Source: Candidatus Flemingiibacterium sp. (GTDB lineage Bacteria > Bacillota > Clostridia > Oscillospirales > CAG-272). Taken from it: a stretch of DNA of 64,000 nucleotides. Shown here piece by piece: positions 34,590-58,752 of the stretch. The position numbers were made by a program, and so were the translations under genes. Numbering within the stretch: position 1 is the stretch's first letter; each line of letters starts with the position of its first letter. The notes under the pieces are model-generated. The model saw nothing but the letters and a program-made list of their open reading frames with translations, was not told the DNA's origin and ran no database searches. The DNA is taken from assembly GCA_045586505.1 (NCBI GenBank), contig JAZNAL010000013.1, forward strand, positions 49,804-113,803. Reading direction: 5' to 3'.

Positions 34590-34814
34590 ATAAGATAGCT
34601 CCTTTTTTGTAATCTACACACATATTATAGCACATAAAATCAACATTGTCAATATATTTTATTTATATATACAAAATTATCTCCAAACGGTTGACAAACG
34701 GGGCGTTTTGATGTAAAATATAATCAAAGTCAACCGAATGGTGACAAATAGAGCAAAATGGAGGTGATTAAACCTATCCTCTCAGTTCGGATTATTCCGA
34801 AAACCATTCCGAGT

Positions 34815-34973: not shown

Positions 34974-35160
34974 TCATATCCCTCTTAAGGTAGCATCGCA
35001 ATTCCTCGGCGTATCACCCCGACAGTTATCGATGCTTATTGCGGATAACCGCGAACCCTTTGCATCAATCGGTGCCAATATTGGAACCAGACAGAAGTAC
35101 GCCAGAATCTACACCGAAAGAATGATTGCCTATCTGAACGGTGAACTTCCGAATATTTAA
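34930..35160 (+). CDS. small HTH protein (excisionase/regulator-like)
   Basis: AAAGGAGA RBS 7 nt upstream of the ATG at 34930. The HTH-like segment is VASQFLGVSPRQLSMLIADN. Confidence 0.5.
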   Translation: MDKRTADMLREKYPNHIPLKVASQFLGVSPRQLSMLIADNREPFASIGANIGTRQKYARIYTERMIAYLNGELPNI

Positions 35161-35285
35161 GTGAGAAAGGCTCTTACTTGTATTGGAGGGTGGTTAGCTT
35201 CCTTGAAGGCAAAAAATAATTGTCAGGTGATATGACTGCACTTTTTGCTTTTCATATCACCTGATTTTTTCATATGGAGGTTATT

Positions 35286-36924: not shown

Positions 36925-37106
36925 TACTTCTGAAATTACCATGGAGAAAAGATATGTAAGTTTGGAAACACGATGTAAAATGCCATGTAAAACCCGCATT
37001 GGCTCTGATAGGCGAAACTGTATGGCTGTCAGACCGTATCAAATTCAGAGAGGTTCAGAGAGGGGATTTCGCGCGAGCGTAATCCTCTCTCTGAACAAGC
37101 GGAAAT

Positions 37107-37156
37107 AAGCCCAACCTGAACTTGCCTTTTTCGCAGGCTTTGGTTGGGCTTTTTAA
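37107..37156 (+). terminator. intrinsic terminator
   Basis: Hairpin AAGCCCAACC/GGTTGGGCTT followed by T5. Confidence 0.65.
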
Positions 37157-37268
37157 AAACAACAGGACTTATGTAAATCATTGACGACTCATCCCTGCAA
37201 AAGTATGACATTGTTACGATGTGGTAAAATATATACACAGCATAATGAAACAGAGGAGTTGTCAAGTT

Positions 37269-46460: not shown

Positions 46461-46469
46461 TTCATTTAT

Positions 46470-46510
46470 AGAAGAAACCACACTCTACAAAATAGAGTGT
46501 GGTTTCTTCT
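46470..46510 (+). terminator. intrinsic terminator of the surface-protein operon
   Basis: Hairpin AGAAGAAACCACACTCT/AGAGTGTGGTTTCTTCT. Confidence 0.75.
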
Positions 46511-46658
46511 ATATGGAGACATTTTTTAAGTTTTATTCAACTCAATAGTTATAATTCTTAACACTAATTATAATTCACAAAGAATGTGTAGATTGCTGGA
46601 AAATTATGTGATATAATACACTTTAGTAAAGATATTTGGTGCCATGGGAGAAATAATT

Positions 46659-46802
46659 ATGATGCTAGATATATCTGATACGCAATTTAAAAGAATTTTC
46701 TCTAACCCTAAATTTTATCTTCCTATTCGCTGGGATAATAAAGACTTTTTATATACATTAAAGGCGTTAATGTGGATGGGTGTGTTGTTTGTGTTATTGT
46801 AA
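46659..46802 (+). CDS. possible 47-aa small protein with hydrophobic C-terminus (below the ORF-track cutoff)
   Basis: GGGAGA RBS. MMLDISDTQFKRIFSNPKFYLPIRWDNKDFLYTLKALMWMGVLFVLL. Confidence 0.25.
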   Translation: MMLDISDTQFKRIFSNPKFYLPIRWDNKDFLYTLKALMWMGVLFVLL

Positions 46803-46872
46803 TTAGAGACAACTCAAGTAATTGATTATTTGGATACGTTTTACTTTATGTGTCGATTTTTACATATTAATG

Positions 46873-46901
46873 TTGCAAAATATAATGTGTTGTGATATAA
46901 T
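46873..46901 (+). promoter_or_regulatory. promoter of the 46943-49277 two-gene module
   Basis: TTGCAA-17 nt-TATAAT, 42 nt upstream of the ATG, which has a GGGAGG RBS. Confidence 0.6.
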
Positions 46902-46942
46902 AATAATTGAAAAAGAAAAAAGTATAAAAGGGAGGATGTATT

Positions 46943-47566
46943 ATGGTAAATACAGTAGTGGATATTAGTGAATTTTACCAGACAATCAATGATATTGAAA
47001 CTTTAGGATTTGACACACATTTGTTTATCAACGCAATTAACAAAATATATAATTCGCCTATTTTTATATTAATAAATGATAAAACTGAAGATAAGGTTTT
47101 ACCATCTGATGAATTAAATTCATTGCGAATTTTGGGTACACCGGTCTATGTATCTGTTACGCAAATTAAAGACAATTTAAAAAGTGATTTTTTCAATATG
47201 GTACTACGTATTTTTTTAAATAGTATTTCTAAACAAAATAGAGAAATGGTTGTTTCTTTGCTTGAACAGTTGTTGCCTCAAATAATTGCAAGCATACACT
47301 ACATTACTAAAGAAGAAAGATGTATGTATGCTATTGCAATAGAATTTTATTTAAGAGATAGTCAAAAGTTTCATAGCCCCGAGGAATTCAAACCCAAGCT
47401 GTTAGAAAATTATTGTGATAACCTTACCGTAAACTGCTCACATAGAAAGAACACAAAATGTTTTATTAGTATGGAGCGAGTGTATAATTCGTTAAATAGT
47501 TTAGAAAGCAAGCATATATTAGAGAGGAACAAGGAAACAAATGGGTACAAATACATACGATGGTAA
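46943..47566 (+). CDS. hypothetical protein, component A of a two-gene module
   Basis: 207-aa AT-rich ORF with a strong RBS. No recognisable catalytic motif. The C-terminal VYNSLNSLESKHILERNKETNGYKYIRW looks winged-helix-like. It overlaps the next gene by 26 nt. Confidence 0.6.
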   Translation: MVNTVVDISEFYQTINDIETLGFDTHLFINAINKIYNSPIFILINDKTEDKVLPSDELNSLRILGTPVYVSVTQIKDNLKSDFFNMVLRIFLNSISKQNREMVVSLLEQLLPQIIASIHYITKEERCMYAIAIEFYLRDSQKFHSPEEFKPKLLENYCDNLTVNCSHRKNTKCFISMERVYNSLNSLESKHILERNKETNGYKYIRW

Positions 47567-49277
47567 TGAAGTAATGATAAACAATAACAATGATGACTTG
47601 TTTTCCACTGCTTCCTTTGAGCCAGAGGCAATTGAAATTTTAACTGCGGATGATGTATATGGTGCAACTGCTGATATTTTAGAGAAAGAATTTGAGAGTC
47701 TTTATGAAATAAAGCAAAACTTGGAAACATCAGGAGCTACAAAATCAGCAGTTATATTTCGAGATATTCTATGGAAAATACTTTTTAGGAATAATGAAAA
47801 TATCCCCACTCCTTTTATTATTTTAAAAGAGTCGTTTCATATTAACAGAGTGTATTATGATAGTTATAGTTCTCATCTTTCTGCCAAGCATTTTCCACGC
47901 AAGCAATATTGCAAGAGACTATTCTTTTTAAGTTGTCCAATATACTCTGATGACCTTTTTGATAAAAGTGAAAACGAGTTGTGTGATTTACTAATAGGTT
48001 CTTGTGTTATAAGACCGTCTCTTGAAAACGAGAACATTATTGGGCAAACGCTTTTGAATCCAAAATGTTTTGAAAAATGGAAAAACGAATATATATGCAC
48101 AGCTTCATACAAATTAACTATGTTCGGTAAACGTGTAAGTCTCGAAGCATTTCCTTATATGATGCAAGATGGGGAAGTTATTACTTGTGCAGAAACAACT
48201 TTAATTCATTTGTTGGATTATTTTAGTAATCGTTATAGTTCATACAGATCCGTAGTTCCCAGTGATTTGTTTGAAATTGAAAAAGAGCTATCTTTTGAAC
48301 GTATTATTCCAAGTAAAGGGATGACTTATAAAACAGTTTCACATCTTTTGACCAAGTTAAACTTTCATCCTAAATTATATGGTTTTGATAATAATGATAC
48401 AATTGTAGATAAAAGAACTATGCATCATTATATTGATTCGGCGATCCCAGTCGCAGTAAGTTTGAATCCAGGGAATGCCGAACAATCCCACTCAATTGTT
48501 GCTATAGGAATATCAAAAACTTTATTGCCGATAAATAAGGTGTCCTCTAAATTAAAGCCACAAAATGGATTGTATTTTCTAGATATTTCGGATTTGTATT
48601 ATGAATATATAGTTATGAATGATTCTTCTGCACCTTATACAAAGATATCTATGGTTACAGATGGTTGCAAAGAAAAGAGATTTAAATTCCAAATAGAAAA
48701 TACAGTTGGAAATTTTGAAATTTCATCAATAATTGCTCCTTTGGCAAAAAGAATGTATCTAGACGATTTTAAGGCTTCGGAAATTGCATTAAGTTTTATT
48801 TCAAATGATAATGTAGGAATAAAAAAGGCAATTGAAATGGCTGGTATTGATGAATATAGCCAGTTGGGATTGACTAAAAATGATCCTATATTGTATCGCT
48901 TGTTTTTGGTAAGAGCCGGTAGTTTTAGAAGAAAACGATCGTTTAACTTAAAGAAAAAAACCTTGCGATGGACGGTATATAGTAGTATTCCTTTGCCAAA
49001 ATTTGTTTGGGTATGTGAATTGTATAGCAAGTCTTCGTTGGAAAAAGGGAAAGCAATTGGAGAAGTGGTTATTGATGCTACTGCGAGTGAAATGGATGGA
49101 ATTTCAAGTGCAATAATACTAAATTATCCAGGTTGCTTTTCCTATCGTACTCCGGAAGAATCATTTGATATTTTTGTAAAACGATATGAATCCAATGATC
49201 AACCGACCGATTGGTCGCTAATTGAACCATATATACATTTTCAAGAACCCCAAGAGGAATATTTAGAAAATAATTAA
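47541..49277 (+). CDS. hypothetical protein with central papain-fold (C39-like) cysteine peptidase signature, component B
   Basis: 578 aa. FPYMMQDGEVITCAETTLIHLLDYF shows a Q..C nucleophile context as in C39/papain-like peptidases. A downstream AEQSHSIVAIG is a candidate catalytic His. The N- and C-terminal regions are unassigned. Confidence 0.5.
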   Translation: MGTNTYDGNEVMINNNNDDLFSTASFEPEAIEILTADDVYGATADILEKEFESLYEIKQNLETSGATKSAVIFRDILWKILFRNNENIPTPFIILKESFHINRVYYDSYSSHLSAKHFPRKQYCKRLFFLSCPIYSDDLFDKSENELCDLLIGSCVIRPSLENENIIGQTLLNPKCFEKWKNEYICTASYKLTMFGKRVSLEAFPYMMQDGEVITCAETTLIHLLDYFSNRYSSYRSVVPSDLFEIEKELSFERIIPSKGMTYKTVSHLLTKLNFHPKLYGFDNNDTIVDKRTMHHYIDSAIPVAVSLNPGNAEQSHSIVAIGISKTLLPINKVSSKLKPQNGLYFLDISDLYYEYIVMNDSSAPYTKISMVTDGCKEKRFKFQIENTVGNFEISSIIAPLAKRMYLDDFKASEIALSFISNDNVGIKKAIEMAGIDEYSQLGLTKNDPILYRLFLVRAGSFRRKRSFNLKKKTLRWTVYSSIPLPKFVWVCELYSKSSLEKGKAIGEVVIDATASEMDGISSAIILNYPGCFSYRTPEESFDIFVKRYESNDQPTDWSLIEPYIHFQEPQEEYLENN

Positions 49278-49368
49278 AAAATAGCGATTTACTATTGACT
49301 AATAATCAAATTTGTGATATACTATATTAGCTCGGAAGTTACGGAGACGATAGAAAGAGGAAATAATT

Positions 49369-49548
49369 ATGTTTTTAAAACCTAAAAAGGTTTGTATTGA
49401 GAAAAATTTTGCACCAAGAGTGCATTCTGTAAAAATTACCCAGCAGCATATTGACGAATTGAATAGAGAAATTCAGAAAAATGTTATGGAAAAAGAAATC
49501 GAACGAGAAAAAGGCTTAGAAATTGCTGTTCGTTGTCGTATGAGATGA
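49369..49548 (+). CDS. stand-alone 59-aa basic/coiled-coil small protein (below the ORF-track cutoff)
   Basis: It has its own TTGACT-17-(TGa)TATACT promoter at 49295-49323, a GAAAGAGGA RBS and a terminator hairpin at 49602-49645. Sequence: MFLKPKKVCIEKNFAPRVHSVKITQQHIDELNREIQKNVMEKEIEREKGLEIAVRCRMR. Confidence 0.45.
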   Translation: MFLKPKKVCIEKNFAPRVHSVKITQQHIDELNREIQKNVMEKEIEREKGLEIAVRCRMR

Positions 49549-49730
49549 TTCTGATTGCCTTTTATGTCAATTACGGTCACTATGTAGTTGCAAATATTGT
49601 AAAATACCACTCGAGAACGCTATGTCTTGAGTGGTATTTGTTTTAAAATGAGTATTATCTCCACAACAAATATAATAAAAAACAATCAAATTGAATTTGC
49701 ATATCAAATATGATTAGTATGCAGATATCC

Positions 49731-49759
49731 TTGACTTTCTGCATATAATATAGTATAAT
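49731..49759 (+). promoter_or_regulatory. promoter of the Fic operon with overlapping operator-like repeats
   Basis: TTGACT-17 nt-TATAAT. The 8-10 nt element TATGCAGA(TA) occurs at 49718-49727 (direct), 49738-49745 (inverted, within the spacer) and 49762-49771 (direct). Confidence 0.65.
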
Positions 49760-49784
49760 TATATGCAGATAAGGAGCGTGTATT

Positions 49785-50831
49785 ATGAGAAAGTTTGATT
49801 ATTCGTTTTTAAATAACGGTTTGTTACCTGCTAATCTAATAAACTTGACATCAAGTATTGCATCTCTTAAAACAATGGCTGGGGTACGTAAAGAAGAGTA
49901 TGCAAAGATTTTCACTGAGCTTGAAGCAGTGGCAAAAGTGCAGTCTGTTAAAAGCTCTAATGCCATTGAGGGCATCGTTACAAGTGATGAGCGTATTGCC
50001 GCTATCGTTAATCAGGATAGTGCCCCGCTCAATCATACTGAAGGTGACATTGCCGGATACCGTGATGCACTTAATGCTATTCACTTAAATCACGATAACC
50101 TTGATTTGCGTGAATCTGACATTTTGAGACTGCATCAAACAATGATGCAGATAGCAGGTTACGAATATGGCGGTCAATATAAGACCGGAGATAATTATAT
50201 TATTGAGGAAGATAAGGACGGAAACAGAAACGTAAGATTTAGACCAACTCCCGCTAATGAAGTAAAGGAAGCAATGGAGCAGTTGGAGCTTGCTTATATG
50301 GAAGCACGAAACGATGCTAACATCAATCAGCTTTTGCTTATTCCTTGTGTTATTCTTGACTTTTTGTGTATTCACCCGTTCAGAGATGGCAATGGAAGAA
50401 TGTCAAGACTCATATCATTGCTATTGCTTTACAAAAACGGATATGACGCAGGAAAATATGTTTCCTTTGAAGAGCAGATAAATAATTACAAAGGCTTTTA
50501 TTATGAAGCCCTCAGAGAATCTTCAATAGGTTGGCACGAGAATCAAAACACATACGTTCCTTTTATTGAAAATTTCTTGTCCACTCTTTATATGTGCTAC
50601 AAAGAACTTGATAAGCGTTTTGCGGTTGTAAATGGTAAAAAGATTACAAAGACAGCAAGAATTGAAGCAACCGTTTTGAATAGCCTTGTACCCATATCAA
50701 AGGCGGAGATTTGTGACGTTTTGCCAGATGTAAGCCCTACAACCGTTGAAGCGATTTTAAGCGTTATGGTAAAGAAAGGGCAGATTAAAAAGATTGGACA
50801 AGCAAGGATGACGAGGTATATTAAAGTTTAA
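49785..50831 (+). CDS. Fic-family protein (AMPylase-type) with N-terminal inhibitory-helix motif and C-terminal wHTH
   Basis: Fic motif HPFRDGNGRMSRL. The N-terminal SSNAIEGI fits the (S/T)xxxE(G/N) auto-inhibition motif. The C-terminus is wHTH-like. Confidence 0.85.
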   Translation: MRKFDYSFLNNGLLPANLINLTSSIASLKTMAGVRKEEYAKIFTELEAVAKVQSVKSSNAIEGIVTSDERIAAIVNQDSAPLNHTEGDIAGYRDALNAIHLNHDNLDLRESDILRLHQTMMQIAGYEYGGQYKTGDNYIIEEDKDGNRNVRFRPTPANEVKEAMEQLELAYMEARNDANINQLLLIPCVILDFLCIHPFRDGNGRMSRLISLLLLYKNGYDAGKYVSFEEQINNYKGFYYEALRESSIGWHENQNTYVPFIENFLSTLYMCYKELDKRFAVVNGKKITKTARIEATVLNSLVPISKAEICDVLPDVSPTTVEAILSVMVKKGQIKKIGQARMTRYIKV

Positions 50832-50848
50832 ATAAGGAAGTAGATGTT

Positions 50849-52411
50849 ATGAAAGAGGTTATATTGCGTGAATATCAGGTAAATGCACTAAATTCCATTG
50901 AACAAGCCTTGAAACAAGGGCGAAAGCGTATAGCTATAGAAATGCCTGTTGGATGTGGAAACAGTGTTATTTTATTAAAACTATTGGAAATCCTGTCTGA
51001 ATTTAATAGGGGCAAAACTCTTGTTGTTACTCATACTCTTGAGGCGAAAAAATATGTTCTGCAATCATTATTAAAAAACAATAACGATTCTGACCAAACT
51101 GTTGTAGAAACTCAGCAGAAGCTTATAAAGCTTTCTGAAAAAGATACAATTGAATATCAGTTTGTTATTTTTTATGATGTTGTAATAACAAAAAGTTTAA
51201 GCGCAGTATTTGATAACAAAGACATAACAATTATTGCCCTCCTTAAAGACAATTCTATTGGGATGCAAGAGCGCTTTACCTCTGAGGATGTAGTATTTTC
51301 ATATAGTTATAAGCAGGCTGTTGACGATGGATACATTACTCCTGCAATGGATGCAAAAGCTTTTGAACCTGCGGTTGAAGCATTTAGCAAACAATTGTTA
51401 GAGCAATTTGGTTATACTCAAGTTAATTGCGATAAAAGCATACAGGACTTCGGCTGGGATTTGATAGTAAAAAACAATGATCAAACATTATTGGTAGAAT
51501 GTAAAGCATACAAAAGCCAAGTGGTTTCTCCGTTTGCGGCAGATTCTATGTTAAAAAGTGTTGTATTGCGAAAAACAAAACAAAATCTTCAGCAGAACGA
51601 TTTAGTTCTGTTAATAGTTTTAAGTAGTATTCCCAGTTTTCGTAAAAAAGAAATTTATGAAAGATTTGGAACCATTATTTGGGATATTCAAAATTTAGTA
51701 TTTTACAGCAAACAAGATCCTGATTTGATTAAACAATTATCCCAAATTACATATTTCCCTATTGACTATATTGAGGGACAGCCTTCCGAAGAAGCAGAAG
51801 CTGCCGGATTAAGCTATGTTGGTGTTGAAGACAAAATTGTTTCTGAAGCGGAAAAAGAAACAATTGAAGTTGAGGAACTTATTCAACAGTTAGAGGAGTG
51901 TAAAGCAGGAAAGAAGTATTCACGAGAATATGAAAGCATCTGCGAAAGGATATTAAGTAGCCTTTTTGCATCAAATTATTTCAATAGGTTAACAAACCAA
52001 CACAAAACAAGCGATGAGCATTTCAGAATGGATATGATAGGTTCTTTAAAGATAAGTCAAAAGAATGAGGAAAGTATGCACCCTCTGTGGAAAATGTTTG
52101 TACAGCATTATAATTCTCATTTTGTTGTTTTTGAGTTTAAAAACTACTCAAAAGAAATCGATCAGAATTTGATTTATATTACCGAAAAATATCTATTTGA
52201 TGCAGCACTAAGAAATGTGGCTATAATTATATCACGAAAAGGTTTTTCAAAATCTGCGAAGTTTGCGGCAGAAGGATGTTTGAAAGAACACGGAAAACTT
52301 ATCCTTGATATTACCGACAAAGACTTAATACAAATGTTGGAACATAGTGATGAAGCCGCAGATCATTTACTGATGAAATTAGAAGAATTTTTAATGCGTA
52401 TAAGCAAATAA
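50849..52411 (+). CDS. three-domain protein: degenerate helicase N-lobe + Mrr-like PD-(D/E)xK nuclease + second PD-(D/E)xK-like domain
   Basis: LREYQ followed by PVGCGNS replaces a PTGxGKT Walker A, so the Lys is missing. GWDLIVKNNDQTLLVECKAYK is a D..ExK motif of Mrr type. RMDMIG...FVVFEFKNY is a second D..ExK-like motif. Confidence 0.55.
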   Translation: MKEVILREYQVNALNSIEQALKQGRKRIAIEMPVGCGNSVILLKLLEILSEFNRGKTLVVTHTLEAKKYVLQSLLKNNNDSDQTVVETQQKLIKLSEKDTIEYQFVIFYDVVITKSLSAVFDNKDITIIALLKDNSIGMQERFTSEDVVFSYSYKQAVDDGYITPAMDAKAFEPAVEAFSKQLLEQFGYTQVNCDKSIQDFGWDLIVKNNDQTLLVECKAYKSQVVSPFAADSMLKSVVLRKTKQNLQQNDLVLLIVLSSIPSFRKKEIYERFGTIIWDIQNLVFYSKQDPDLIKQLSQITYFPIDYIEGQPSEEAEAAGLSYVGVEDKIVSEAEKETIEVEELIQQLEECKAGKKYSREYESICERILSSLFASNYFNRLTNQHKTSDEHFRMDMIGSLKISQKNEESMHPLWKMFVQHYNSHFVVFEFKNYSKEIDQNLIYITEKYLFDAALRNVAIIISRKGFSKSAKFAAEGCLKEHGKLILDITDKDLIQMLEHSDEAADHLLMKLEEFLMRISK

Positions 52412-52453
52412 CAGAAATATGTAGAAAGTGATTGATTGTTAAAGGATATAGAC

Positions 52454-53185
52454 ATGAACAATGTAGAAGATTTTGAAAACACTAAACTTTCGCTAATTAA
52501 TTCGAAACAGTTAGAAGAGATCAAAAACAATCCAGCCACTAAGGCAACCATATTGTCAGTAATTAAAGCTATCCCTGTGTTGGGAGAATTAATTGACGGA
52601 ACGATTGATGCATCTTTAAACAAATTTCAGCAAAGTAAGAGAAACGAGTTGCTGGATATTGTTTTAAGCACATCCGAGACGATTACTACAGAAATGGTAA
52701 ATGATGTAGAATTTATAATAAATTTTGCAAAGACATTAGAAGCTGTAAATAGGCTTGGCTCTAATGATAAGGTGAAATATTTTGCAAACATTATTAAAAA
52801 CGGATATTTATCAGGGCAAAGAATAACAGATGGCGAATTCGAGGAATACCTATACGCCTTATCAACGATGTCTTACAGACAAATAAATATTCTTATTGAT
52901 TTGTATATTTATGAGCAGAACAATGTTGCAGAGGACAATACCGAAGATAAGACAAAGAAAAATAACAAGCTTGCACCAAGACATGATACATGGAGCACAT
53001 TTGTTAACAGTGTGGCTGAAAAATATAGTATTACACTAGAAGATGTAATTAGTATACTGACAAGCATATCTAAAACAGGTTTTTGTAGTGAGGTAACCGG
53101 GGCATATTTTGGTTACACGGGAGGAGTCTTTTACATCACCAGTAGTTGCAAAAAATTTATAGAGATGATTTCGGATAGAATGTGA
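52454..53185 (+). CDS. hypothetical protein
   Basis: 243-aa ORF (AAAGGA RBS, ATG at 52454) with no recognisable motif, tightly packed between the nuclease and SIR2-like genes. Confidence 0.55.
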   Translation: MNNVEDFENTKLSLINSKQLEEIKNNPATKATILSVIKAIPVLGELIDGTIDASLNKFQQSKRNELLDIVLSTSETITTEMVNDVEFIINFAKTLEAVNRLGSNDKVKYFANIIKNGYLSGQRITDGEFEEYLYALSTMSYRQINILIDLYIYEQNNVAEDNTEDKTKKNNKLAPRHDTWSTFVNSVAEKYSITLEDVISILTSISKTGFCSEVTGAYFGYTGGVFYITSSCKKFIEMISDRM

Positions 53186-53191
53186 GGGTAT

Positions 53192-54456
53192 ATGGCAAAA
53201 GGATTATTGTTGGGGGCAGGTTTTTCTTTTGATTTGGGAATGCCGTTGGCATCTGAGTTTTCAGATACATTATTCGGCTTTTTAAATTCTTTTAAAATTG
53301 AGAATTTAATTAACAATATGAGAGGTCATAGACCATACAGTAATGACAGAACGCTCTGTGATGTCACACTCAACCGGTTACTTGAGATATACAATGGATT
53401 TCTTAATTCTGAGAATAAAAATTATGAAGAATTATTCAGGATTGTTGAGAGTTTGCAGGTGAACAGTAGAGAAGCACAAGAAACGGTTAGTTATTTTCTT
53501 TCAAAGATAAGAAATATCATAAACGAATTGTTCCTTATATATCAGAAAAACACATATTTTTACTATATTCTTAACAGAGATAAATACAAGTGGTTGATAG
53601 ATCAATTTGAAAAAGAAGAATTATGGGTATTTACACTGAATCACGATGTGTTAATCGAAATGCTGTGTATTGATTATAAAATACCATTAAATGAGGGGTA
53701 TTCGCGAACCATGCAAATTCCTATGTCAAATATAAATATGGAAGAGTGCATTGACTTTGGAAAAATTGATGCAACAGAGAAAGATGTTGATAAGTTAAAC
53801 TACCTCAAAAATACAAAAGGAATAAACATTTTAAAAATACATGGTGGATTAAACGAGTTTTTTCAGGGGGATGAAAAAACAGGCAGACATCGTATGATAT
53901 TTGATTACCATAAATTTGAAAGTTCTTTAAACTATTTGAATGCATTGGAGTCATTTATTCATGCTCCGCACTATTACATAAATGACAGACCTCCCAATAT
54001 AGAAAGTGAAATATGTGTAAGTGATTTTGACGGTGTTTTGCAATTTATGCACCTTCGATTTTAACCGGAAGCAAAAAGTATCACAAAACAATATCCCAAA
54101 ATCAGCGTGAAGAAAAAATCGAGCTGTTTTCATCTGGATTGACCAAAATAGATGAGCTGTATATTATAGGGTACAGTTTTGCTGACAAACATATAAATAA
54201 CAGAATATCACATGCTATGCATCTGAATGATAAATTAAAAGTACTTGTAGTAAGTCCTACAGCTCAAAAGCAGGAACTGTTCGAACCATTTGATTATAAT
54301 GCAAGAGTACGTTATTGTAATACTTCATTTCCTGTTTGGGCAGATTATGAAAAGAAAGGTGAATGGGATTCTGAATTCAGTAAAACGATAAGTGAATTGA
54401 CTGATACTGTCAGAAAGCCGTTGATTGCATCTGTAAAAGAAAGCATTATTAAATGA
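53192..54456 (+). pseudogene. SIR2-like (SIR2_2 type) NADase-family gene interrupted by a frameshift
   Basis: LLLGAGFSFDLGMP (GAGxS), FTLNHDVLIE and KIHGG lie in frame 2, which stops at 54062-54064. The expected continuation APSILTGSKKY...LYIIGYSFADKHIN is in frame 1, open from 54031. T4 runs at 54036-54039 and 54059-54062 lie in the overlap. Confidence 0.6.
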
Positions 54457-54463
54457 GCGTAGA

Positions 54464-54506
54464 AAAACCTACCACCTAAGCCACTATGACTTAGGTGGTA
54501 GGTTTT
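54464..54506 (+). terminator. intrinsic terminator of the Fic-SIR2 operon
   Basis: Hairpin AACCTACCACCTAAG/CTTAGGTGGTAGGTT followed by a T-run. Confidence 0.75.
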
Positions 54507-54559
54507 CTGTAAATGCAAAGACATTCTTCACAATGTGTAAGGTTCGTCTTTGCGTGTTT

Positions 54560-54634
54560 TGGTGACCCGTACGGGAATCGAACCCATGTTTCCGCCTTGA
54601 GAGGGCGGCGTCTTAGCCGCTTGACCAACAGGCC
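54560..54634 (-). tRNA. tRNA-Glu (anticodon CUC)
   Basis: rc = GGCCTGTTGGTCAAGCGGCTAAGACGCCGCCCTCTCAAGGCGGAAACATGGGTTCGATTCCCGTACGGGTCACCA. It forms a cloverleaf with anticodon loop CUCUCAA and an encoded CCA. It has its own TTGACA-17-TATAAT promoter (rc 54681-54653). Confidence 0.85.
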
Positions 54635-54879
54635 GATCATCAGAACACGAATATTATATCATATCCCATTTTATTTGTCAATATCTTTTTGAAAAAAACT
54701 TAAAATATTTTTATTTAATCAGCAGCATTGTAGATATGCTATATCGGCAGTTATTCCTCAAAGCTCCAGTACGCCCATATTCAAGGTGTTTATATCATGC
54801 GACAGCGGTTGTCAAGGGGGATGGCAAACATCACTTAAAAAGGAATCGCCTTTGTCAAAGGACAAAGGCGATTCCTTTT

Positions 54880-54953
54880 TGGCTGGGGATGAGGGGTTCG
54901 AACCCCCACAAACAGAGTCAGAGTCTGTCGTGCTACCGTTACACAAATCCCCA
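54880..54953 (-). tRNA. tRNA-Gln (anticodon CUG)
   Basis: rc = TGGGGATTTGTGTAACGGTAGCACGACAGACTCTGACTCTGTTTGTGGGGGTTCGAACCCCTCATCCCCAGCCA. The acceptor stem TGGGGAT/ATCCCCA is perfect and the anticodon loop is CUCUGAC. A TTGACA-17-(TGg)TATAAT promoter lies upstream on the minus strand. A terminator hairpin at 54841-54876 lies downstream. Confidence 0.85.
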
Positions 54954-55079
54954 ATGTGATTTATTCAACGGACAATATTATACCACAACATAATGGGTTT
55001 GTCAATAGGTTTTAGAAAATATTTTTCGTTTTTCAGGAGGAAATTTTTTCAAAAATTCTCCAACTTCCCGATAATGTAA

Positions 55080-55108
55080 TTGACATGGCGTCAATTATAT
55101 GTTAAAAT
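55080..55108 (+). promoter_or_regulatory. promoter of the TerB/ATPase/helicase operon
   Basis: TTGACA-17 nt-TAAAAT. Confidence 0.55.
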
Positions 55109-55146
55109 AATATAATAACCAAAACTCGGTCGAAGGAGGCGAAAAT

Positions 55147-56898
55147 ATGAGCGATAAACCGAAAAATCTCAGCGATATCGACAGATTCTGGGATCTTGAT
55201 TCCCTGCTGCCAAAAAAGCGCCCCGTTACACCCTCGGTGCGTTCGGTGAATACCGACACCGTGGAGTTTTCCGTGGGCACGGATGATAACACCCCTGATG
55301 GCGGCGCGGCGATACCGCCGAGGGATTCGAATGCACCCCTTCCCGAGCGCACCTCCCCCCACGATCAGGCACGGCGTCTGAACGAACTGCCCATGCGCAC
55401 ACGTGCGCAGGAGTACCGCTCAAAGCCGCTTGATCCGTATCTTATCTATGAGCCTGAAAACACGCTTATCCGCCGCGTTGAGGTGTCAAAATGGGACTCG
55501 CGGTTCAATTTCTACGAAAACTTTCAGTCCGATGTGAAGCGGCTGTGGTCACGCGCCGCCGTACCTGCCGACCACGTCTCCTTCTTCTCATATGTGCCGC
55601 AGTATTCCCAGCTTAAATACGCTCAACTCAAATGGTACCTCTGGTGGCGCGAAAATGTACGGCGCGGTACGTACCTACGTACCGATTTCTGCTACATCCT
55701 TTTATACATCTACGAGATCATCAACTGCCCCGACCTGATAACGCCCGAAAAGGGGCTCGAGCTTCTCTGCGACATCTGGACAAACTACCGCGGCGAACAC
55801 CGCAGGATCGACAGCTATATGTGCGACTGGCTGTGCGACTACTGTCTTATCAATAAGCTCCCCTGTCCCGCAAATCGCCTTGAACCCATAATCGGTGACA
55901 TCGTGGCGGCGGCAAATTTCAAGGAGTTCTACATCGGTTCGGGGAAGGGCGACGTTGCTGCAAGCATTCTCGCCTATTCCTCCACCTACGACTGGCGTAA
56001 AAGCCGCTATGTTACGAGCGAAAACATGGAGCTTTTCGCGTTACACATACGCGGCGCATTTGAAAAAGCGTACCGCGAGGTGCTCTCGGAAAAGGACGAC
56101 AGCTTCGCTAAGGAGTTCCGCGTGGAACGCAGTGCATACGACGGCGCGCTTTGTGTATATAATATGAAGCGGACGATCACGGTGGAATATGCATCTTACA
56201 CACGCTCGCCGAAGTTCCGTTTCGTGGTGACTGATATAATCAAATACAGCGAAAACCGCATCCGCATGGCGCTTGGCGTCAAATCCCGTCTCAAGGTGGA
56301 CTCGCTCGGAGATAAATTAAAGGCGTGCCTTGATGAATATTTCGATACACACCTCCCCCTTCCGAAAAAGAGCCGCGCATCAAAATCCGCGGCGATCCTG
56401 CCGGAGGTAAACGAATACGACAAGCTCTATGAGCCGACCTCTACCACGCTTTCTCTTGAAAACGCGCTCAGGATCGAACAAAGCTCCTGGAGCACCACCG
56501 ACATACTCACCTCGGCGTTTGAGGAATCTTCGGAGCAAGCACCATCGAAGCCTGTACCCAAAGCCGTGCCGGAGCCCATCCCGGAACCGAGCTCTCAACA
56601 AAAGTCCATCCCCGAGACGCTTTCTTACACCGAAACGCCGGAAGGTACCGACGAGTTTGAGGGATTTGTCGCTTCTCTTGACGGCATCGCCCGCGAAGCG
56701 CTGACACAGCTAGCAAACGGCGATAGTGCCGCGCTGGCAAAGGCTGCATCGACGGCGGGCATACTTGCAGATGCCCTGGCAGACAAAATCAACGAAGCAG
56801 CGTTCGATATCATCGGCGACAGCGTGATCGAACCACACGTCGGCGGATATCGGCTCATTTCCGATTACGAAGGAGATCTTGTAAAATGGCTGAAATGA
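55147..56898 (+). CDS. TerB-N / TerB-C domain protein (Shango SngA-like)
   Basis: FFSYVPQYSQLKYAQLKWYLWWRENVRRGTYLRTDFCYILLYIYEIIN matches the TerB_N signature. The C-terminal ..ILADALADKINEAAFDIIGDSVIE matches TerB_C. Confidence 0.7.
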   Translation: MSDKPKNLSDIDRFWDLDSLLPKKRPVTPSVRSVNTDTVEFSVGTDDNTPDGGAAIPPRDSNAPLPERTSPHDQARRLNELPMRTRAQEYRSKPLDPYLIYEPENTLIRRVEVSKWDSRFNFYENFQSDVKRLWSRAAVPADHVSFFSYVPQYSQLKYAQLKWYLWWRENVRRGTYLRTDFCYILLYIYEIINCPDLITPEKGLELLCDIWTNYRGEHRRIDSYMCDWLCDYCLINKLPCPANRLEPIIGDIVAAANFKEFYIGSGKGDVAASILAYSSTYDWRKSRYVTSENMELFALHIRGAFEKAYREVLSEKDDSFAKEFRVERSAYDGALCVYNMKRTITVEYASYTRSPKFRFVVTDIIKYSENRIRMALGVKSRLKVDSLGDKLKACLDEYFDTHLPLPKKSRASKSAAILPEVNEYDKLYEPTSTTLSLENALRIEQSSWSTTDILTSAFEESSEQAPSKPVPKAVPEPIPEPSSQQKSIPETLSYTETPEGTDEFEGFVASLDGIAREALTQLANGDSAALAKAASTAGILADALADKINEAAFDIIGDSVIEPHVGGYRLISDYEGDLVKWLK

Positions 56899-58256
56899 CA
56901 CGAAAGATACCAAAACGAATACTCACGGGACTGCTCTCGTCAATCTCGGCGGGTGTAGTGCCGCGTATGGGTGCGCCCTATATCGCCATAGGACGAAACG
57001 AGGAGATCGAAGCGCTGCTCTCTGATCTCGAAGCCGTCAACGACGGCGGCGGTACCATGCGCTTTATCATAGGTAAATACGGAAGCGGCAAGAGCTTCCT
57101 TATCCAGCTCGTACGCGGCTTTTCCATAGAGCGCGGCTTCATCACCGCCGATGCGGATCTGTCCCCTGAACGCCGTATCTGCGGTGCAAAGGGTACGGGT
57201 ATTGCAACCTACCGCGAGCTGATACGCAACCTCGCCTCAAAATCCTCACCTGACGGCGGTGCACTGCAGCAGATAATCGCGAAATGGCTGTCAGATCTGC
57301 AGTCATCGGTGGCGGCGGAGGGGCACGAGATTGGCTCAGATGCGTTCCTGCGTGAGCTGACCTCCCGAATCTATTCACAGACCCGCGAGCTCGAAGCGCA
57401 GATTGGCGGCTTCGATTTTGCCACGGTGCTTACACAGTATTACAAAGCGTACATGGACGGCGACGAGGAGAAAAAGTCCGCCTGTATGCGATGGCTTCGC
57501 GGTGAATACTCCACTAAGACTGAGGCGCGCAATGCTATCGGTGTATCTCTCGGAGGTATCATCGACGATGACAACTGGTACGAGTATATAAAGCTTTTTG
57601 CGGTATTTTTCAGAAAGCTCGGCTACCGCGGATTTGTGGTATTCATCGACGAGTGTGTGAATCTTTATAAGATCGCCAACCGCATCTCACGCGAGAACAA
57701 CTACGAAAAGCTACTGTCCATGTTCAACGACACCTTGCAGGGCAAAGCCGAGGGGCTTGCGCTGATCTTCGGCGGCACACCGCAGTTTTTGGAGGACACC
57801 CGCCGCGGCCTGTTCTCCTATGAAGCACTCCGCAGCCGACTGTCCGACGGACAGTTTCAAAAGGACGGCTTCAAAAACCTGATCGGCCCCGTGATCCGTC
57901 TTCGCAGACTGTCCGATGATGAGCTGTATGCGCTGATTGCACGCATCACGGGTCTGCACGCCCAGAATTACGTCTGGGAGCCGCGGGTGACAAACGAGGA
58001 TATGCTGACATTTCTTAAGATCTGCCTTGACCGTGCGGGTGCTGACACCATGATAACCCCCCGTGAGATCATCCGCGACTATATAACTCTTTTGAACATC
58101 CTCCTGCAGAATCCCGACACCACGTTTACCGATGTGGTGGGCAGCGGAGTCGTCAAGCTCTCTCACGGCGAGGATGAGGAGAATGCTATTATCGTAGACG
58201 AAGGCGGCAGACCGCAGGTACGGACCGATTTTTCGGCGGAAGACATCGAATTATAA
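56886..58256 (+). CDS. DUF2791/BrxD-like P-loop ATPase (Shango-like ATPase component)
   Basis: GVVPRMGAPYIAIGRNEEIEAL....FIIGKYGSGKSFL (Walker A) and VVFIDEC (Walker B). It overlaps the TerB gene by 13 nt. Confidence 0.65.
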   Translation: MAEMTRKIPKRILTGLLSSISAGVVPRMGAPYIAIGRNEEIEALLSDLEAVNDGGGTMRFIIGKYGSGKSFLIQLVRGFSIERGFITADADLSPERRICGAKGTGIATYRELIRNLASKSSPDGGALQQIIAKWLSDLQSSVAAEGHEIGSDAFLRELTSRIYSQTRELEAQIGGFDFATVLTQYYKAYMDGDEEKKSACMRWLRGEYSTKTEARNAIGVSLGGIIDDDNWYEYIKLFAVFFRKLGYRGFVVFIDECVNLYKIANRISRENNYEKLLSMFNDTLQGKAEGLALIFGGTPQFLEDTRRGLFSYEALRSRLSDGQFQKDGFKNLIGPVIRLRRLSDDELYALIARITGLHAQNYVWEPRVTNEDMLTFLKICLDRAGADTMITPREIIRDYITLLNILLQNPDTTFTDVVGSGVVKLSHGEDEENAIIVDEGGRPQVRTDFSAEDIEL

Positions 58257-58277
58257 AATATGAGGAGATAAAAAGTC

Positions 58278-58748
58278 ATGAACACGGCAGTAGAATACAT
58301 GAACGCGCGCGGCTACGGCGAGCGTGTCCGCATACTCACCGAATCCACCGCCACCGTAGCTCTTGCCGCACAGGCACTTGGTGTCACGGAGGGCGAGATC
58401 GCGAAAACGCTTTCGTTTATGCTCGGCGGCGCTCCCATACTCATCGTTATGGCGGGCGATGTCAAGACCGACAACCATAAGTACAAGGCAAAATTCTGCA
58501 CTAAAGCGAAAATGCTCACACCCGACGACACGGTGGAGCTGATCGGTCATGCCGTCGGTGGCGTTTGCCCCTTTGGCATCAAGGACGGCGTCACGGTATA
58601 CCTCGACGAATCGCTGAAGCGCTTCGAGCTTGTCTTTGCGGCGTGCGGCGCTATCGACACCGTCATCGGGCTCAGCATTCCCGAGCTTGAAACTCTGTCG
58701 GGGTATGCCTGTTGGGTGGATGTTACAAAGCCCCACGAGGCGGTGTGA
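58278..58748 (+). CDS. YbaK/EbsC-type aminoacyl-tRNA trans-editing (deacylase) domain protein
   Basis: 156 aa. ..EIAKTLSFMLGGAPILIVMAGDVKTDNHKYK....IGHAVGGVCPFG fits the pattern of the YbaK/ProX family. Its stop is 4 nt before the helicase start. Confidence 0.7.
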   Translation: MNTAVEYMNARGYGERVRILTESTATVALAAQALGVTEGEIAKTLSFMLGGAPILIVMAGDVKTDNHKYKAKFCTKAKMLTPDDTVELIGHAVGGVCPFGIKDGVTVYLDESLKRFELVFAACGAIDTVIGLSIPELETLSGYACWVDVTKPHEAV

Positions 58749-58752
58749 GAAA

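What the first reader, a model, noticed from the sequence alone, without database searches (positions are those of the whole stretch)
49785..54456. Uncharacterised four-gene defence-like operon: Fic, a degenerate-helicase/double-nuclease protein, an unknown protein and a SIR2-like gene
Four tightly packed, co-oriented, very AT-rich genes share one consensus promoter (49731-49759) and one terminator (54464-54506). Intergenic gaps are 17, 42 and 6 nt.
- Gene 1 is a Fic protein with an intact HPFRDGNGRMSRL motif and an N-terminal SxxxEG auto-inhibition motif.
- Gene 2 fuses a helicase-like N-lobe whose Walker A lysine is missing (PVGCGNS) to two PD-(D/E)xK nuclease-like domains.
- Gene 3 has no recognisable motif.
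- Gene 4 is SIR2_2-like (GAGxS, NHD, HGG, IIGYSF motifs).

SIR2 NADases, PD-(D/E)xK nucleases and Fic/Doc toxins are each recurrent defence effectors. I do not recognise this particular four-gene combination as any named system (Thoeris, DSR, SIR2-HerA, pAgo-SIR2, AVAST, Lamassu and others). The locus sits next to tRNA genes and a Shango-like operon, which is a typical defence-island context.
Basis: partly seen in the sequence, partly recalled or inferred. Interest (0 to 1): 0.8.

Follow-up and report, generated by a model that had tools for sequence, protein, structure and literature searches.

The report
Fic-led stack of separable defence genes
The four genes are real and are probably transcribed together, but they are not one dedicated four-part immune system: they are separately assorting defence-type genes stacked behind a known type of Fic gene, and the SIR2 gene is broken here.

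Summary
Four co-oriented AT-rich genes (49785-54456) lie between a near-consensus promoter and a strong terminator, next to tRNA-Glu and a Shango operon.

The "novel four-gene system" reading does not hold.
- In DNA about 90% identical, the same promoter-to-terminator unit occurs as Fic-g3 (L015), Fic-g2-g3 (L018) and Fic-g2-g3-SIR2 (window, L039). The indels fall exactly at gene borders.
- Outside this lineage the genes separate. Of 95 loci seeded with g2, 89 have no Fic. Of 43 loci seeded with g3, 40 have none of the other three. A 71%-identical SIR2 stands alone.

What each gene is:
- Gene 1 matches PADLOC's SoFic, a named single-gene defence.
- Gene 2 is a usually solitary Mrr-type nuclease with one degenerate helicase lobe.
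- Gene 4 is closest to the SIR2 of SIR2-HerA but has no HerA. A 1-nt deletion inactivates it here.
- Gene 3 is the interesting part. It belongs to an unannotated family of about 900 clusters (helical domain plus winged helix). It sits just downstream of very different effector genes (Fic, HEPN, NUDIX, nucleases, membrane proteins) and also occurs in phage contigs.

Best reading: a modular defence array at a hotspot. Interest is moderate.

The parts
49602..49645 (+). Hairpin plus T run that ends the preceding small-ORF transcript and marks the left edge of the Fic unit
   Evidence: 15-nt inverted repeat, 93% complementary, at 49602-49616 / 49625-49639, followed by TTGTTTT. Homology with L015 and L018 begins just after it, at 49695.
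49718..49771 (+). Promoter (TTGACT-17-TATAAT, 49731-49759) with operator-like repeats: a perfect 12-nt palindrome TCTGCATATAAT / ATTATATGCAGA (49738-49749 / 49758-49769) bracketing the -10 element, and a third TATGCAGATA copy at 49718-49727
   Evidence: The same motifs are kept upstream of Fic in L015, L018 and L006 (L006 has no g3), so they travel with Fic. Repressor binding is inferred, not shown.
49785..50831 (+). Gene 1: class II Fic AMPylase-type protein with a C-terminal winged-helix region (SoFic-like)
   Evidence: Pfam Fic 7.8e-15. PADLOC SoFic 2.1e-34, covering profile positions 29-349 of 361. HPFRDGNGRMSR at residue 197 and SNAIEG at residue 58. Nearest solved structure is 8UQU, 8.5e-63. 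dN/dS 0.02-0.03. Its 90%-identity cluster has 144 members.
50849..52411 (+). Gene 2: a single SF2 RecA1-like lobe (Walker A Lys replaced by Asn38), an Mrr-type PD-(D/E)xK domain (D204, E217-x-K219) and a very conserved C-terminal domain with a D395...E429-x-K431 motif
   Evidence: Pfam ResIII 4.5e-10 and Mrr_cat 2.9e-6. Family alignment A3. Foldseek matches the N-lobe to LlaGI/LlaBIII, RadD, XPB, SauUSI and HsdR at E 4e-7 to 1e-5. phrog_31260 covers residues 202-520, E = 5.6e-53. dN/dS 0.11-0.12.
52454..53185 (+). Gene 3: unannotated protein with an N-terminal all-helical domain and a C-terminal winged helix. It recurs as the 3' neighbour of varied effector genes.
   Evidence: No significant match in Pfam, NCBIfam or PHROGs; the only PADLOC match is a weak one to PDC-S29, E = 0.0064. 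907 cluster representatives at E <= 1e-3. AlphaFold pLDDT 78. Foldseek gives only weak MarR-like winged-helix matches. Contexts.
53192..54456 (+). Gene 4: SIR2-family gene, a pseudogene here. A 1-nt deletion between 54051 and 54052 (CAACC to CACC) leads to a stop at 54062-54064.
   Evidence: Frames. The intact 421-aa homologue P0212 is 93% identical. Junction comparison. PADLOC generic SIR2 models reach about 1e-11; Pfam SIR2_2 scores 25.9 bits on the intact copy. The profile's nearest solved relatives are the SIR2 of SIR2-HerA systems, 5.6e-8.
54469..54509 (+). Intrinsic terminator shared by all gene-content variants of the unit
   Evidence: dG -28.6 kcal/mol, z = -8.3. It aligns to L018 and L015 directly after g3, and to L039/L040 after SIR2.
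54560..54634 (-). tRNA-Glu(CTC), convergent with the unit. It is the right-hand landmark of the site.
   Evidence: L018 and L040 have a tRNA-Glu in the same place.

Best explanation
The locus is a modular, co-transcribed stack of separately assorting defence-type genes at a tRNA-Glu-flanked site. It is not a four-component machine.

The constant part is a SoFic-type class II Fic gene with its own promoter and palindromic operator. Downstream genes have been added to or lost from the same transcription unit, exactly at gene borders.

Inferred working of each part, by analogy with its family:
1. Fic is held off by its N-terminal inhibitory helix (SNAIEG). When infection relieves that inhibition, it AMPylates cellular targets and arrests the cell (abortive infection).
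2. Gene 2 is an Mrr-like nuclease that acts on DNA. Its single helicase-like lobe lacks the Walker A lysine in this lineage, so it most likely serves binding or regulation rather than ATP-driven translocation.
3. Gene 4 would deplete NAD+, but a frameshift inactivates it in this genome.
4. Gene 3 is an accessory DNA-binding protein (winged helix) that rides at the 3' end of other effector genes. Its own activity is unknown.

Shown: gene content, motifs, family matches, modular distribution, purifying selection, and the frameshift. Inferred: all biochemical activities, anti-phage function, and operator binding.
For: 1. Same unit, three gene contents. blastn gives L018 = window 49695-53183 at 90.9%, then a jump to 54463-54634 (no SIR2). 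L015 = Fic (49695-50840) + g3 (52465-53183) + terminator (no g2, no SIR2). L039/L040 hold all four genes with an intact SIR2. The linker after the Fic stop codon (TAAATAAGGAAG..AGAT..ATG) is the same whether g2 or g3 follows.
2. Co-occurrence table. Of 95 g2-seeded loci, 89 have no Fic, g3 or SIR2. Of 43 g3-seeded loci, 40 have none of the others. Of 8 SIR2-seeded loci, only L039 has all four.
3. Cluster sizes at 90% identity are Fic 144, g2 8, g3 1, so Fic is far more widespread than its present neighbours.
4. Fic matches PADLOC SoFic at 2.1e-34. Relatives on plasmids at 38-45% identity mostly have no adjacent co-oriented partner gene. SoFic is reported as a single-protein defence (PMC12249575, PMC11514479).
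5. SIR2 at 71% identity is a lone gene beside MmeI and ApeA-HEPN genes.
6. g2 relatives lie among unrelated neighbours (GlmS, Na/Pi transporter, SNF2, HsdR, AAA_13). Some exist as 340-aa nuclease-only proteins, some of them on viral contigs.
7. All four genes are under purifying selection (dN/dS 0.02-0.19). Synonymous divergence differs between genes for the same genome pair: window versus L018 gives Fic 0.55, g2 0.27, g3 0.55. That indicates a mosaic history.
Against: - Tight spacing, one promoter and one terminator mean the products are made together, which is also what a multi-component system looks like.
- Fic-g2 adjacency recurs with two Fic types that are only 27% identical (L001-3 against L006-8 and the window). 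It is present in 3 of 6 distinct contexts of g2 homologues above 54% identity, which is more than a random neighbour would give.
- g3 overlaps its upstream gene by 4 nt in several loci. That suggests functional coupling of g3 to whatever precedes it.
- Sampling is limited. Many contigs are short, only up to 80 loci were returned per scan, and the neighbourhoods of the 144 members of the Fic 90%-identity cluster could not be examined.
- No experiment was done.
Confidence: 0.55

Rival explanations
1. Gene 3 is a promiscuous neutralising or regulatory partner (antitoxin-like, or a sensor) of whatever effector lies upstream. On this reading the functional core here is a toxin-antitoxin-like abortive-infection module, Fic(+g2)-g3, and SIR2 is a later add-on.
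For: - g3 homologues lie directly downstream of, and co-oriented with, very different effector-type genes: Fic (L015), g2 (window, L018), HEPN_RiboL-PSP (L030, 5e-15), an AbiGi-like gene (L029), NUDIX (L010), DUF4379 plus a nuclease (L009, L020), HsdS (L036) and membrane proteins (L012, L016).
- In 12 of 21 informative distinct loci, the upstream ORF ends within 90 nt. Three of these overlap by 4 nt.
- A possible NUDIX-g3 fusion exists (P0178).
- The C-terminal winged helix fits an autoregulating antitoxin.
- There is precedent: a gene downstream of SoFic (AS1) neutralises it (PMC12249575), and the Panacea domain pairs with dozens of toxins (PMC8832971).
Against: - Nearly the same g3 subtype (58-84% identical) follows four unrelated genes: Fic, g2, a 286-aa membrane protein and DUF4379. 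That is hard to reconcile with specific protein-protein neutralisation.
- About a third of loci have no close co-oriented partner.
- In 13 viral contigs g3 sits among small ORFs with no effector nearby.
- Fic at 91% identity exists without g3 (L006-8) and keeps the same operator.
- AS1 is 47 aa and is not comparable in size with g3 (243 aa).
Confidence: 0.27
2. The array is an obligate multi-component system in which the proteins act together. This is either the four-gene system the first reader proposed, or a three-gene Fic-g2-g3 core with a swappable SIR2 effector.
For: - One promoter and one terminator, with gaps of 17, 42 and 6 nt.
- The same four genes occur in L039, with SIR2 intact.
- All are under purifying selection.
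- No named system contains this combination.
Against: - The four-gene set is seen only in DNA about 90% identical to the window.
- L018 lacks SIR2 and L015 lacks both g2 and SIR2, yet their remaining genes are intact and conserved.
- Each gene is found alone elsewhere.
- The window's own SIR2 is frameshifted while the other three genes stay intact.
Confidence: 0.08
3. Two adjacent two-gene systems: Fic-g2 and g3-SIR2.
For: Fic-g2 pairs lacking g3 and SIR2 occur in L001-3 and L006-8. g3 and SIR2 are only 6 nt apart in the window.
Against: - None of the other g3-seeded loci (42 of 43; 34 of them distinct) has this SIR2 downstream.
- L018 has g3 followed directly by the terminator.
- L015 has Fic followed directly by g3.
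- The 71%-identical SIR2 has no g3.
Confidence: 0.04
4. The genes do not act in defence. They are AT-rich horizontally acquired cargo (a Fic regulator or toxin, a restriction-enzyme remnant, and decaying genes) with no joint or protective role.
For: - The SIR2 is a pseudogene.
- g2 lacks the Walker A lysine.
- The island is AT-rich relative to the host genome.
- No anti-phage test exists for any of these exact proteins.
Against: - Strong purifying selection on Fic, g2 and g3.
- The neighbourhoods here and in relatives are rich in restriction-modification, Shango, HEPN, Hachiman and Abi genes.
- The Asn38 variant is stable across three diverged copies that are otherwise conserved.
Confidence: 0.06

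Closest known systems
SoFic (single-gene class II Fic anti-phage defence; PADLOC/DefenseFinder 'SoFic'; PMC12249575, PMC11514479)
   Same: Gene 1 has the Fic motif HPFxDGNGRxxR, the N-terminal inhibitory motif SxxxEG and a C-terminal winged-helix region. It matches the PADLOC SoFic model almost end to end (2.1e-34).
   Different: It does not reach NCBIfam's equivalog cut-off for S. oneidensis SoFic (35.6 against 550 bits). Here it heads an operon with up to three further genes. The reported small antitoxin AS1 (47 aa) has no visible counterpart. No activity has been tested.
SIR2 subunit of SIR2-HerA (Nezha / Gao_Her_SIR) systems (PDB 8J4U, 8SU9, 8YHX, 8W9L; PMC11514289, PMC11472057)
   Same: Similar size (421 aa against 381-428 aa). 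These are the best solved-structure sequence matches to the gene 4 family profile (5.6e-8). The family has invariant GAGFS, N150-H151-D152 and H217-G218.
   Different: No HerA gene is adjacent in the window, in L039 or in L042-46. Similarity is weak and partial. The window copy is frameshifted.
Mrr-type (type IV) and helicase-nuclease restriction enzymes (Mrr_cat; type ISP LlaGI/LlaBIII, SauUSI, HsdR)
   Same: Gene 2 has an Mrr_cat PD-(D/E)xK domain. Its N-lobe matches the RecA1 domain of these motors in both structure and sequence.
   Different: It has only one RecA lobe and no Helicase_C. The Walker A Lys is replaced by Asn in this lineage. It carries an extra, highly conserved C-terminal domain of unproven fold. 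It has no methyltransferase or specificity partner, and it matches no PADLOC model.
Abi-alpha (Pfam PF14337/DUF4393; E. faecalis prophage Abi, PMC6356687)
   Same: Similar size (272 against 243 aa). Both are mostly helical, both occur in Firmicutes and on phage-derived DNA, and both can stand as single genes. A few gene 3 relatives give weak Abi_alpha matches (3 of 43 and 4 of 75; best E = 2.9e-4).
   Different: The window protein and most relatives give no match. None was seen to reach Pfam significance. Gene 3 has a C-terminal winged helix and usually follows another effector gene.
Hyperpromiscuous antitoxin domains such as Panacea/DUF4065 (PMC8832971, PMC10440598)
   Same: One conserved small protein sits next to many unrelated toxin or effector domains, in bacteria and in phages.
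   Different: No sequence or fold relationship was found. Gene 3 lies downstream rather than upstream of its neighbour. Neutralisation has not been tested. The same gene 3 subtype pairs with unrelated partners.

Membership tests
SoFic (single-gene Fic defence) | Fic domain with an intact catalytic motif HPFx[D/E]GNGRxxR | tested here: met
   Pfam Fic 7.8e-15; HPFRDGNGRMSR at residue 197.
SoFic (single-gene Fic defence) | Class II architecture: the inhibitory helix motif (S/T)xxxE(G/N) lies N-terminal to the Fic core | tested here: met
   SNAIEG at residues 58-63. Class definition taken from PMC12249575.
SoFic (single-gene Fic defence) | Full-length match to the system's profile | tested here: met
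   PADLOC PDLC03963 SoFic, E = 2.1e-34, protein residues 18-345 against profile 29-349 of 361. The stricter NCBIfam equivalog NF046030 is not met: 35.6 bits against a cut-off of 550.
SoFic (single-gene Fic defence) | Confers phage resistance or toxicity through AMPylation | not testable with these tools
   Needs cloning, phage challenge and an H197A control.
SIR2-HerA (Nezha) | SIR2 NADase with catalytic Asn and His | tested here: met
   N150 and H217 are invariant in the 42-sequence family alignment and are present in the window's first reading frame. The window gene is nevertheless truncated by a frameshift.
SIR2-HerA (Nezha) | Adjacent HerA-type ATPase gene | tested here: not met
   The terminator and tRNA follow SIR2 in the window. 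No HerA is present in L039 or L042-46.
Thoeris | ThsA (SIR2-SLOG) together with a TIR-domain ThsB | tested here: not met
   No TIR, SLOG, ThsA or ThsB match for any of the four proteins in Pfam or PADLOC.
DSR1/DSR2 | Large (about 1000 aa or more) SIR2 protein with a C-terminal sensor region. This size is from my own knowledge of the family. | tested here: not met
   The intact homologue is 421 aa, with SIR2 features spanning it.
Proposed new four-gene system | Conserved co-occurrence of the four families beyond close relatives | tested here: not met
   All four occur together only in the window and L039, at about 90% DNA identity. L018 and L015 hold sub-sets. Elsewhere the genes are separate.
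Abi-alpha (PF14337) | Significant match to the family profile | tested here: inconclusive
   The window gene 3 gives no match. Among relatives, 3 of 43 and 4 of 75 give weak matches (best E = 2.9e-4). No Abi-alpha sequences were to hand for a profile-profile test.
Type II toxin-antitoxin pair (effector plus gene 3) | Bicistronic pair with direct neutralisation of the toxin by the partner | not testable with these tools
   Gene order and 4-nt overlaps are compatible in several loci. Neutralisation needs co-expression assays.
PD-(D/E)xK nuclease (second domain of gene 2) | Recognisable PD-(D/E)xK fold or profile match | tested here: inconclusive
   Only the motif D395...E429-x-K431, which is invariant in the family. 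No Pfam or PDB match. hhalign against domain 1 gives probability 0.19. AlphaFold pLDDT is below 50 for residues 376-455.

The most novel reading that the evidence does not exclude
Gene 3 may define a new, widespread family (about 900 clusters at 50% identity) of promiscuous partner proteins, built from a helical domain plus a winged helix. On this reading it couples to, or neutralises, many unrelated defence effectors: Fic, HEPN, NUDIX, nucleases and membrane proteins. Phages would also carry it, possibly as a counter-defence. It would be a downstream-encoded analogue of the Panacea antitoxin domain. The Fic-anchored unit would then be a platform into which effectors are swapped at gene borders.
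Probability: 0.25. Interest if true: 0.65.

Novelty: new member of a known kind. Interest (0 to 1): 0.4.

Why it matters
It corrects a tempting over-interpretation. Tight packing under one promoter does not make a multi-component immune system. Comparison with near-identical relatives shows the genes come and go one at a time.

Three useful leads remain:
1. A gene-by-gene presence/absence series (Fic-g3, Fic-g2-g3, Fic-g2-g3-SIR2) in one transcription unit. This is a natural experiment for testing additive against cooperative defence.
2. Two sizeable unannotated families that live in defence neighbourhoods: the gene 2 double-nuclease family and the gene 3 helical/winged-helix family.
3. The gene 3 pattern of following very different effectors, and its presence in phage contigs. 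If functional, this would add a new promiscuous regulator or antitoxin class.

Tried and rejected
- My first working idea was two 2-gene systems, Fic-g2 and g3-SIR2. I dropped it after L015 showed Fic-g3 and L018 showed g3 followed by the terminator.
- Filing gene 3 under Abi-alpha: only sub-threshold matches in a few relatives.
- Fold searches with the gene 3 model against PDB and BFVD gave nothing at E <= 1e-3, only generic MarR-like winged-helix similarity.
- The gene 3 profile against PDB sequences gave only chance-level hits, E >= 0.13.
- tblastn of gene 3 against the INPHARED phage collection gave no match, although IMG/VR contigs do carry relatives.
- Exact look-up of P0121 to recover the source contig found nothing on record.
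- phmmer of the intact SIR2 against PDB gave nothing. A family profile was needed.
- hhalign of the two putative nuclease domains of gene 2 was not significant.
- The apparent Mur-ligase fusion P0177 and the 396-aa P0138 gave no interpretable extra domain, so I did not use them as evidence.
- Rfam found no RNA element in 46000-55200 other than the two tRNAs.
- PDB code 8UQU, the nearest Fic structure, is not mentioned in the paper library.

Full report
**1. What is in the sequence**

The region 49785-54456 holds four co-oriented ORFs on the + strand:
- Fic, 49785-50831, 348 aa.
- Gene 2 (g2), 50849-52411, 520 aa.
- Gene 3 (g3), 52454-53185, 243 aa from the ATG. A TTG at 52436 is the mechanical ORF start, but the database copy P0121 uses the ATG.
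- A SIR2-like gene read in two frames, 53192-54064 and onward to 54456.

The gaps are 17, 42 and 6 nt, as stated. GC is 0.32-0.38, against 0.50-0.54 in the flanks. The AT-rich stretch actually begins near 46000 and takes in two further unannotated ORFs.

A TTGACT-17-TATAAT promoter lies at 49731-49759. Such matches are frequent in this DNA (56 found, 41 expected), so the hexamers alone prove little. Two further observations support it. A perfect 12-nt palindrome (49738-49749 / 49758-49769) brackets the -10 element, and a third copy of TATGCAGATA lies at 49718-49727. The whole arrangement is also conserved upstream of Fic in three related loci.

The terminator is a 13-bp stem at 54469-54503 followed by a T run (dG -28.6 kcal/mol, z = -8.3). 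A separate hairpin at 49602-49639 closes the preceding small-ORF transcript.

tRNA-Glu and tRNA-Gln follow on the opposite strand. After them comes a Shango operon: SngA 4e-48, SngB 1e-168, and a DEAD helicase.

**2. The four proteins**

*Gene 1.* This is a class II Fic protein.
- Pfam Fic scores 7.8e-15.
- The catalytic motif HPFRDGNGRMSR is at residue 197 and the inhibitory-helix motif SNAIEG is at residue 58.
- It matches PADLOC's SoFic model nearly end to end, E = 2.1e-34.
- It does not reach NCBIfam's narrow equivalog for the Shewanella protein: 35.6 bits against a cut-off of 550.
- Its nearest solved structure is 8UQU, 8.5e-63.

*Gene 2.* This protein has three parts.
- An SF2 RecA1-like lobe: ResIII 4.5e-10; PDB profile hits to RadD, XPB and Dda; Foldseek hits to LlaGI/LlaBIII, RadD, XPB, SauUSI and HsdR at 4e-7 to 1e-5. 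There is no second RecA lobe.
- An Mrr_cat domain, 2.9e-6, with D204 and E217-x-K219.
- An almost invariant C-terminal domain carrying D395...E429-x-K431.

The family consensus at Walker A is GxGK(G/S), with Lys in at least 90% of members. The window, L018 and L039 have GCGNS. The second "nuclease" domain rests on the motif only: hhalign gives probability 0.19 and AlphaFold confidence is low over residues 376-455.

*Gene 3.* It has no significant match in Pfam, NCBIfam or PHROGs. Its only PADLOC match is a weak one to PDC-S29, E = 0.0064. Its AlphaFold model (pLDDT 78, pTM 0.74) is an all-helical N-domain plus a C-terminal winged helix. Foldseek gives only weak MarR-like matches.

*Gene 4.* It carries GAGFS, LNHD and IHGG in the first frame and IIGYSF in the second.
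- The intact homologue P0212 (421 aa, 93% identical) shows that the window has lost one A: TTTATGCAACCTTCG has become TTTATGCACCTTCG, between 54051 and 54052.
- The family profile's best solved relatives are the SIR2 subunits of SIR2-HerA systems: 8J4U/8SU9 at 5.6e-8, 8YHX at 1.3e-6, and 8W9L.

**3. Do the genes belong together?**

I looked at the neighbourhoods of homologues of each gene.

*g2.* There are more than 410 homologues, mostly 55-62% identical and about 525 aa long, from gut Firmicutes. Contexts:
- Fic sits directly upstream in L001-3. That Fic is only 27% identical to the window's. Fic is also directly upstream in L006-8, where it is 91% identical. Neither set has g3 or SIR2.
- g2 stands alone in L004-5.
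- g2 is preceded by a 155-aa unknown protein on an integrase element in L145-148.
- A metagenome scan gave 80 more loci, none with Fic, g3 or this SIR2. Their neighbours are unrelated: GlmS, a Na/Pi transporter, SpoIVB, SNF2, HsdR and an AAA ATPase.
- Many relatives are 340-aa nuclease-only proteins (phrog_31260, 5.6e-53) or are annotated as "restriction endonuclease" on plasmids.

*g3.* There are 91 homologues by word search and 907 cluster representatives by profile search. The gene sits downstream of strikingly different genes:

| Locus | Upstream gene |
|---|---|
| L015 | Fic |
| L009, L020 | DUF4379 zinc-ribbon repeats with an embedded nuclease |
| L010 | NUDIX |
| L030 | HEPN_RiboL-PSP (5e-15) |
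| L029 | AbiGi-like protein |
| L036 | HsdS |
| L012, L016 | membrane proteins |
| L024 | HExxH-like protein |

In 12 of 21 informative distinct loci, a co-oriented ORF ends within 90 nt, and three of these overlap by 4 nt. About a third of loci have no close partner. In 13 IMG/VR viral contigs g3 lies among small ORFs.

*SIR2.* The 71%-identical P0213 is a lone gene after MmeI and ApeA-HEPN genes. More distant relatives, at about 32% identity, occur in Vibrio, Shewanella and others.

*Overall table*:

| Seed gene | Loci examined | Result |
|---|---|---|
| g2 | 95 | 89 carry only g2 |
| g3 | 43 | 40 carry only g3 |
| SIR2 | 8 | only L039 carries all four |

**4. The decisive comparison**

DNA alignment of the window with its closest relatives gives three variants.
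- L018 (a Candidatus Flemingiibacterium MAG) matches 49695-53183 at 90.9%. It then continues at 54463-54634, that is, terminator and tRNA-Glu. It therefore carries Fic-g2-g3 with SIR2 cleanly absent.
- L015 matches Fic (49695-50840, 90%), then g3 (52465-53183, 85%), then the terminator. Both g2 and SIR2 are absent.
- L039 and L040 carry SIR2 intact before the same terminator and tRNA-Glu.

Homology starts about 90 nt before the Fic start codon in both L015 and L018. The linker after the Fic stop codon is the same whether g2 or g3 follows. One promoter-to-terminator unit therefore exists with two, three or four genes.

All the genes are under purifying selection:

| Gene | dN/dS |
|---|---|
| Fic | 0.02-0.03 |
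| g2 | 0.11-0.12 |
| g3 | 0.09-0.19 |
| repaired SIR2 | 0.11 |

The frameshift is therefore recent. Synonymous divergence also differs between genes for the same pair of genomes: window versus L018 gives Fic 0.55, g2 0.27 and g3 0.55, and for g3, L039 versus L015 gives 0.26 while window versus L039 gives 0.74. That points to recombination between arrays.

Cluster sizes at 90% identity are 144 for Fic, 8 for g2 and 1 for g3. Fic relatives on plasmids, at 38-45% identity, mostly have no adjacent co-oriented partner gene.

**5. Interpretation**

The best-supported reading is a modular array. A SoFic-type Fic gene with its own promoter and operator heads the unit, and other defence-type genes have been stacked behind it and removed from it.

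The expected activities are inferred from family knowledge and are not shown here:
- Fic: AMPylation leading to abortive infection, once autoinhibition is relieved (PMC12249575).
- g2: Mrr-like DNA cleavage. Its helicase-like lobe probably cannot hydrolyse ATP in this lineage.
- SIR2: NAD+ depletion (PMC11514289, PMC11472057), lost here through the frameshift.
- g3: unknown.

Because the operator motif is kept in L006, which lacks g3, it more likely belongs to Fic's own C-terminal winged helix than to g3. This is inference.

Two observations keep rival readings alive. First, the Fic-g2 pairing recurs with two unrelated Fic types. Second, g3 is tightly coupled to whatever lies upstream of it. 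A promiscuous antitoxin-like or sensor role for g3 is therefore a serious rival. It has precedents in the SoFic antitoxin AS1 (PMC12249575) and in the Panacea domain (PMC8832971). Against it, the same g3 subtype (58-84% identical) follows four unrelated genes, and phage copies have no partner.

**6. Comparison with known systems, and novelty**

- Gene 1 meets the sequence-level criteria of SoFic.
- Gene 4 resembles the SIR2 of SIR2-HerA but fails the defining requirement of an adjacent HerA. Thoeris and DSR are excluded by the lack of TIR/SLOG domains and by size.
- Gene 2 resembles Mrr and helicase-nuclease restriction enzymes, but it has one RecA lobe and an extra domain, and it matches no defence-system model.
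- Gene 3 shows at most a hint of Abi-alpha (PMC6356687).
- The proposed four-gene system fails its own test of conserved co-occurrence.

I classify the locus as a new member of a known kind: a defence island or hotspot whose genes assort one at a time. It contains two unannotated candidate families.

Interest is moderate (0.4). The headline claim is not supported. The natural series of gene contents and the g3 family are both worth experimental follow-up.

Noticed in passing
window 46943-49277 (+): Two overlapping AT-rich ORFs (207 aa and 578 aa, 26-nt overlap, GC 0.29-0.32) lie just upstream in the same low-GC island, with promoter-like sites at 46859-46901. Neither has a significant match in Pfam, PADLOC, NCBIfam or PHROGs (the only matches are three sub-threshold Pfam hits to the 207-aa ORF, best E 0.0016), and the 578-aa protein has no PDB sequence match. 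Their 90%-identity clusters hold only 1-2 members. This may be another unannotated two-gene cassette.
   Followed up: partly
window 49295-49645 (+): A small 59-aa ORF (49369-49548) has its own promoter-like site (TTGACT-17-TATACT, 49295-49323) and its own terminator hairpin (49602-49639). It lies between the unknown pair and the Fic unit, and it is not conserved in L015 or L018.
   Followed up: no
window 49718-49771: A three-copy TATGCAGA(TA) operator-like arrangement, including a perfect 12-nt palindrome around the -10 element of the Fic promoter. It is conserved in L015, L018 and L006. This suggests autoregulation, possibly through the Fic C-terminal winged helix.
   Followed up: partly
L130-L142 (IMG/VR viral contigs, 33-160 kb): Gene 3 relatives (42-54% identical) are carried on viral contigs from human-gut samples, set among runs of small ORFs with no effector gene beside them. 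They could act in superinfection exclusion or as a counter-defence.
   Followed up: partly
window 55147-61044 (+): A complete Shango-type operon (SngA with TerB_N/TerB_C, a BrxC/D-like SngB ATPase and a DEAD/Helicase_C helicase) at host-like GC of 0.54. It lies immediately beyond the two tRNA genes.
   Followed up: partly
window 31648-38108: A large serine recombinase (31648-33174, minus strand), an HTH_3 regulator (33966-34589, minus strand) and a tyrosine integrase (37221-38108, plus strand) lie in a low-GC stretch that begins near 32000. The defence genes may be part of, or lie next to, an integrated mobile element.
   Followed up: no
window 42474-46481: A 1104-aa ORF on the minus strand (43167-46481) lies entirely inside a 1328-aa SLH-domain gene on the plus strand (42474-46460). 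It is probably a compositional artefact of the repetitive surface-protein gene.
   Followed up: no
L001 2135-5713 and 15911 onward; L042-46: The neighbourhoods of relatives are dense in other defence genes. L001 has a HEPN_Swt1-SNF2 giant protein, Vsr with a Dcm methylase and EcoO109I, and HamA with a helicase (Hachiman). L042-46 have RdRP-like, MmeI and ApeA-HEPN genes next to the lone SIR2.
   Followed up: no
L059 225-1286: A 353-aa protein upstream of a gene 2 relative begins MNVTFLLGNGLDKAIGL. By eye this looks AbiH-like, but I ran no profile search on it.
   Followed up: no
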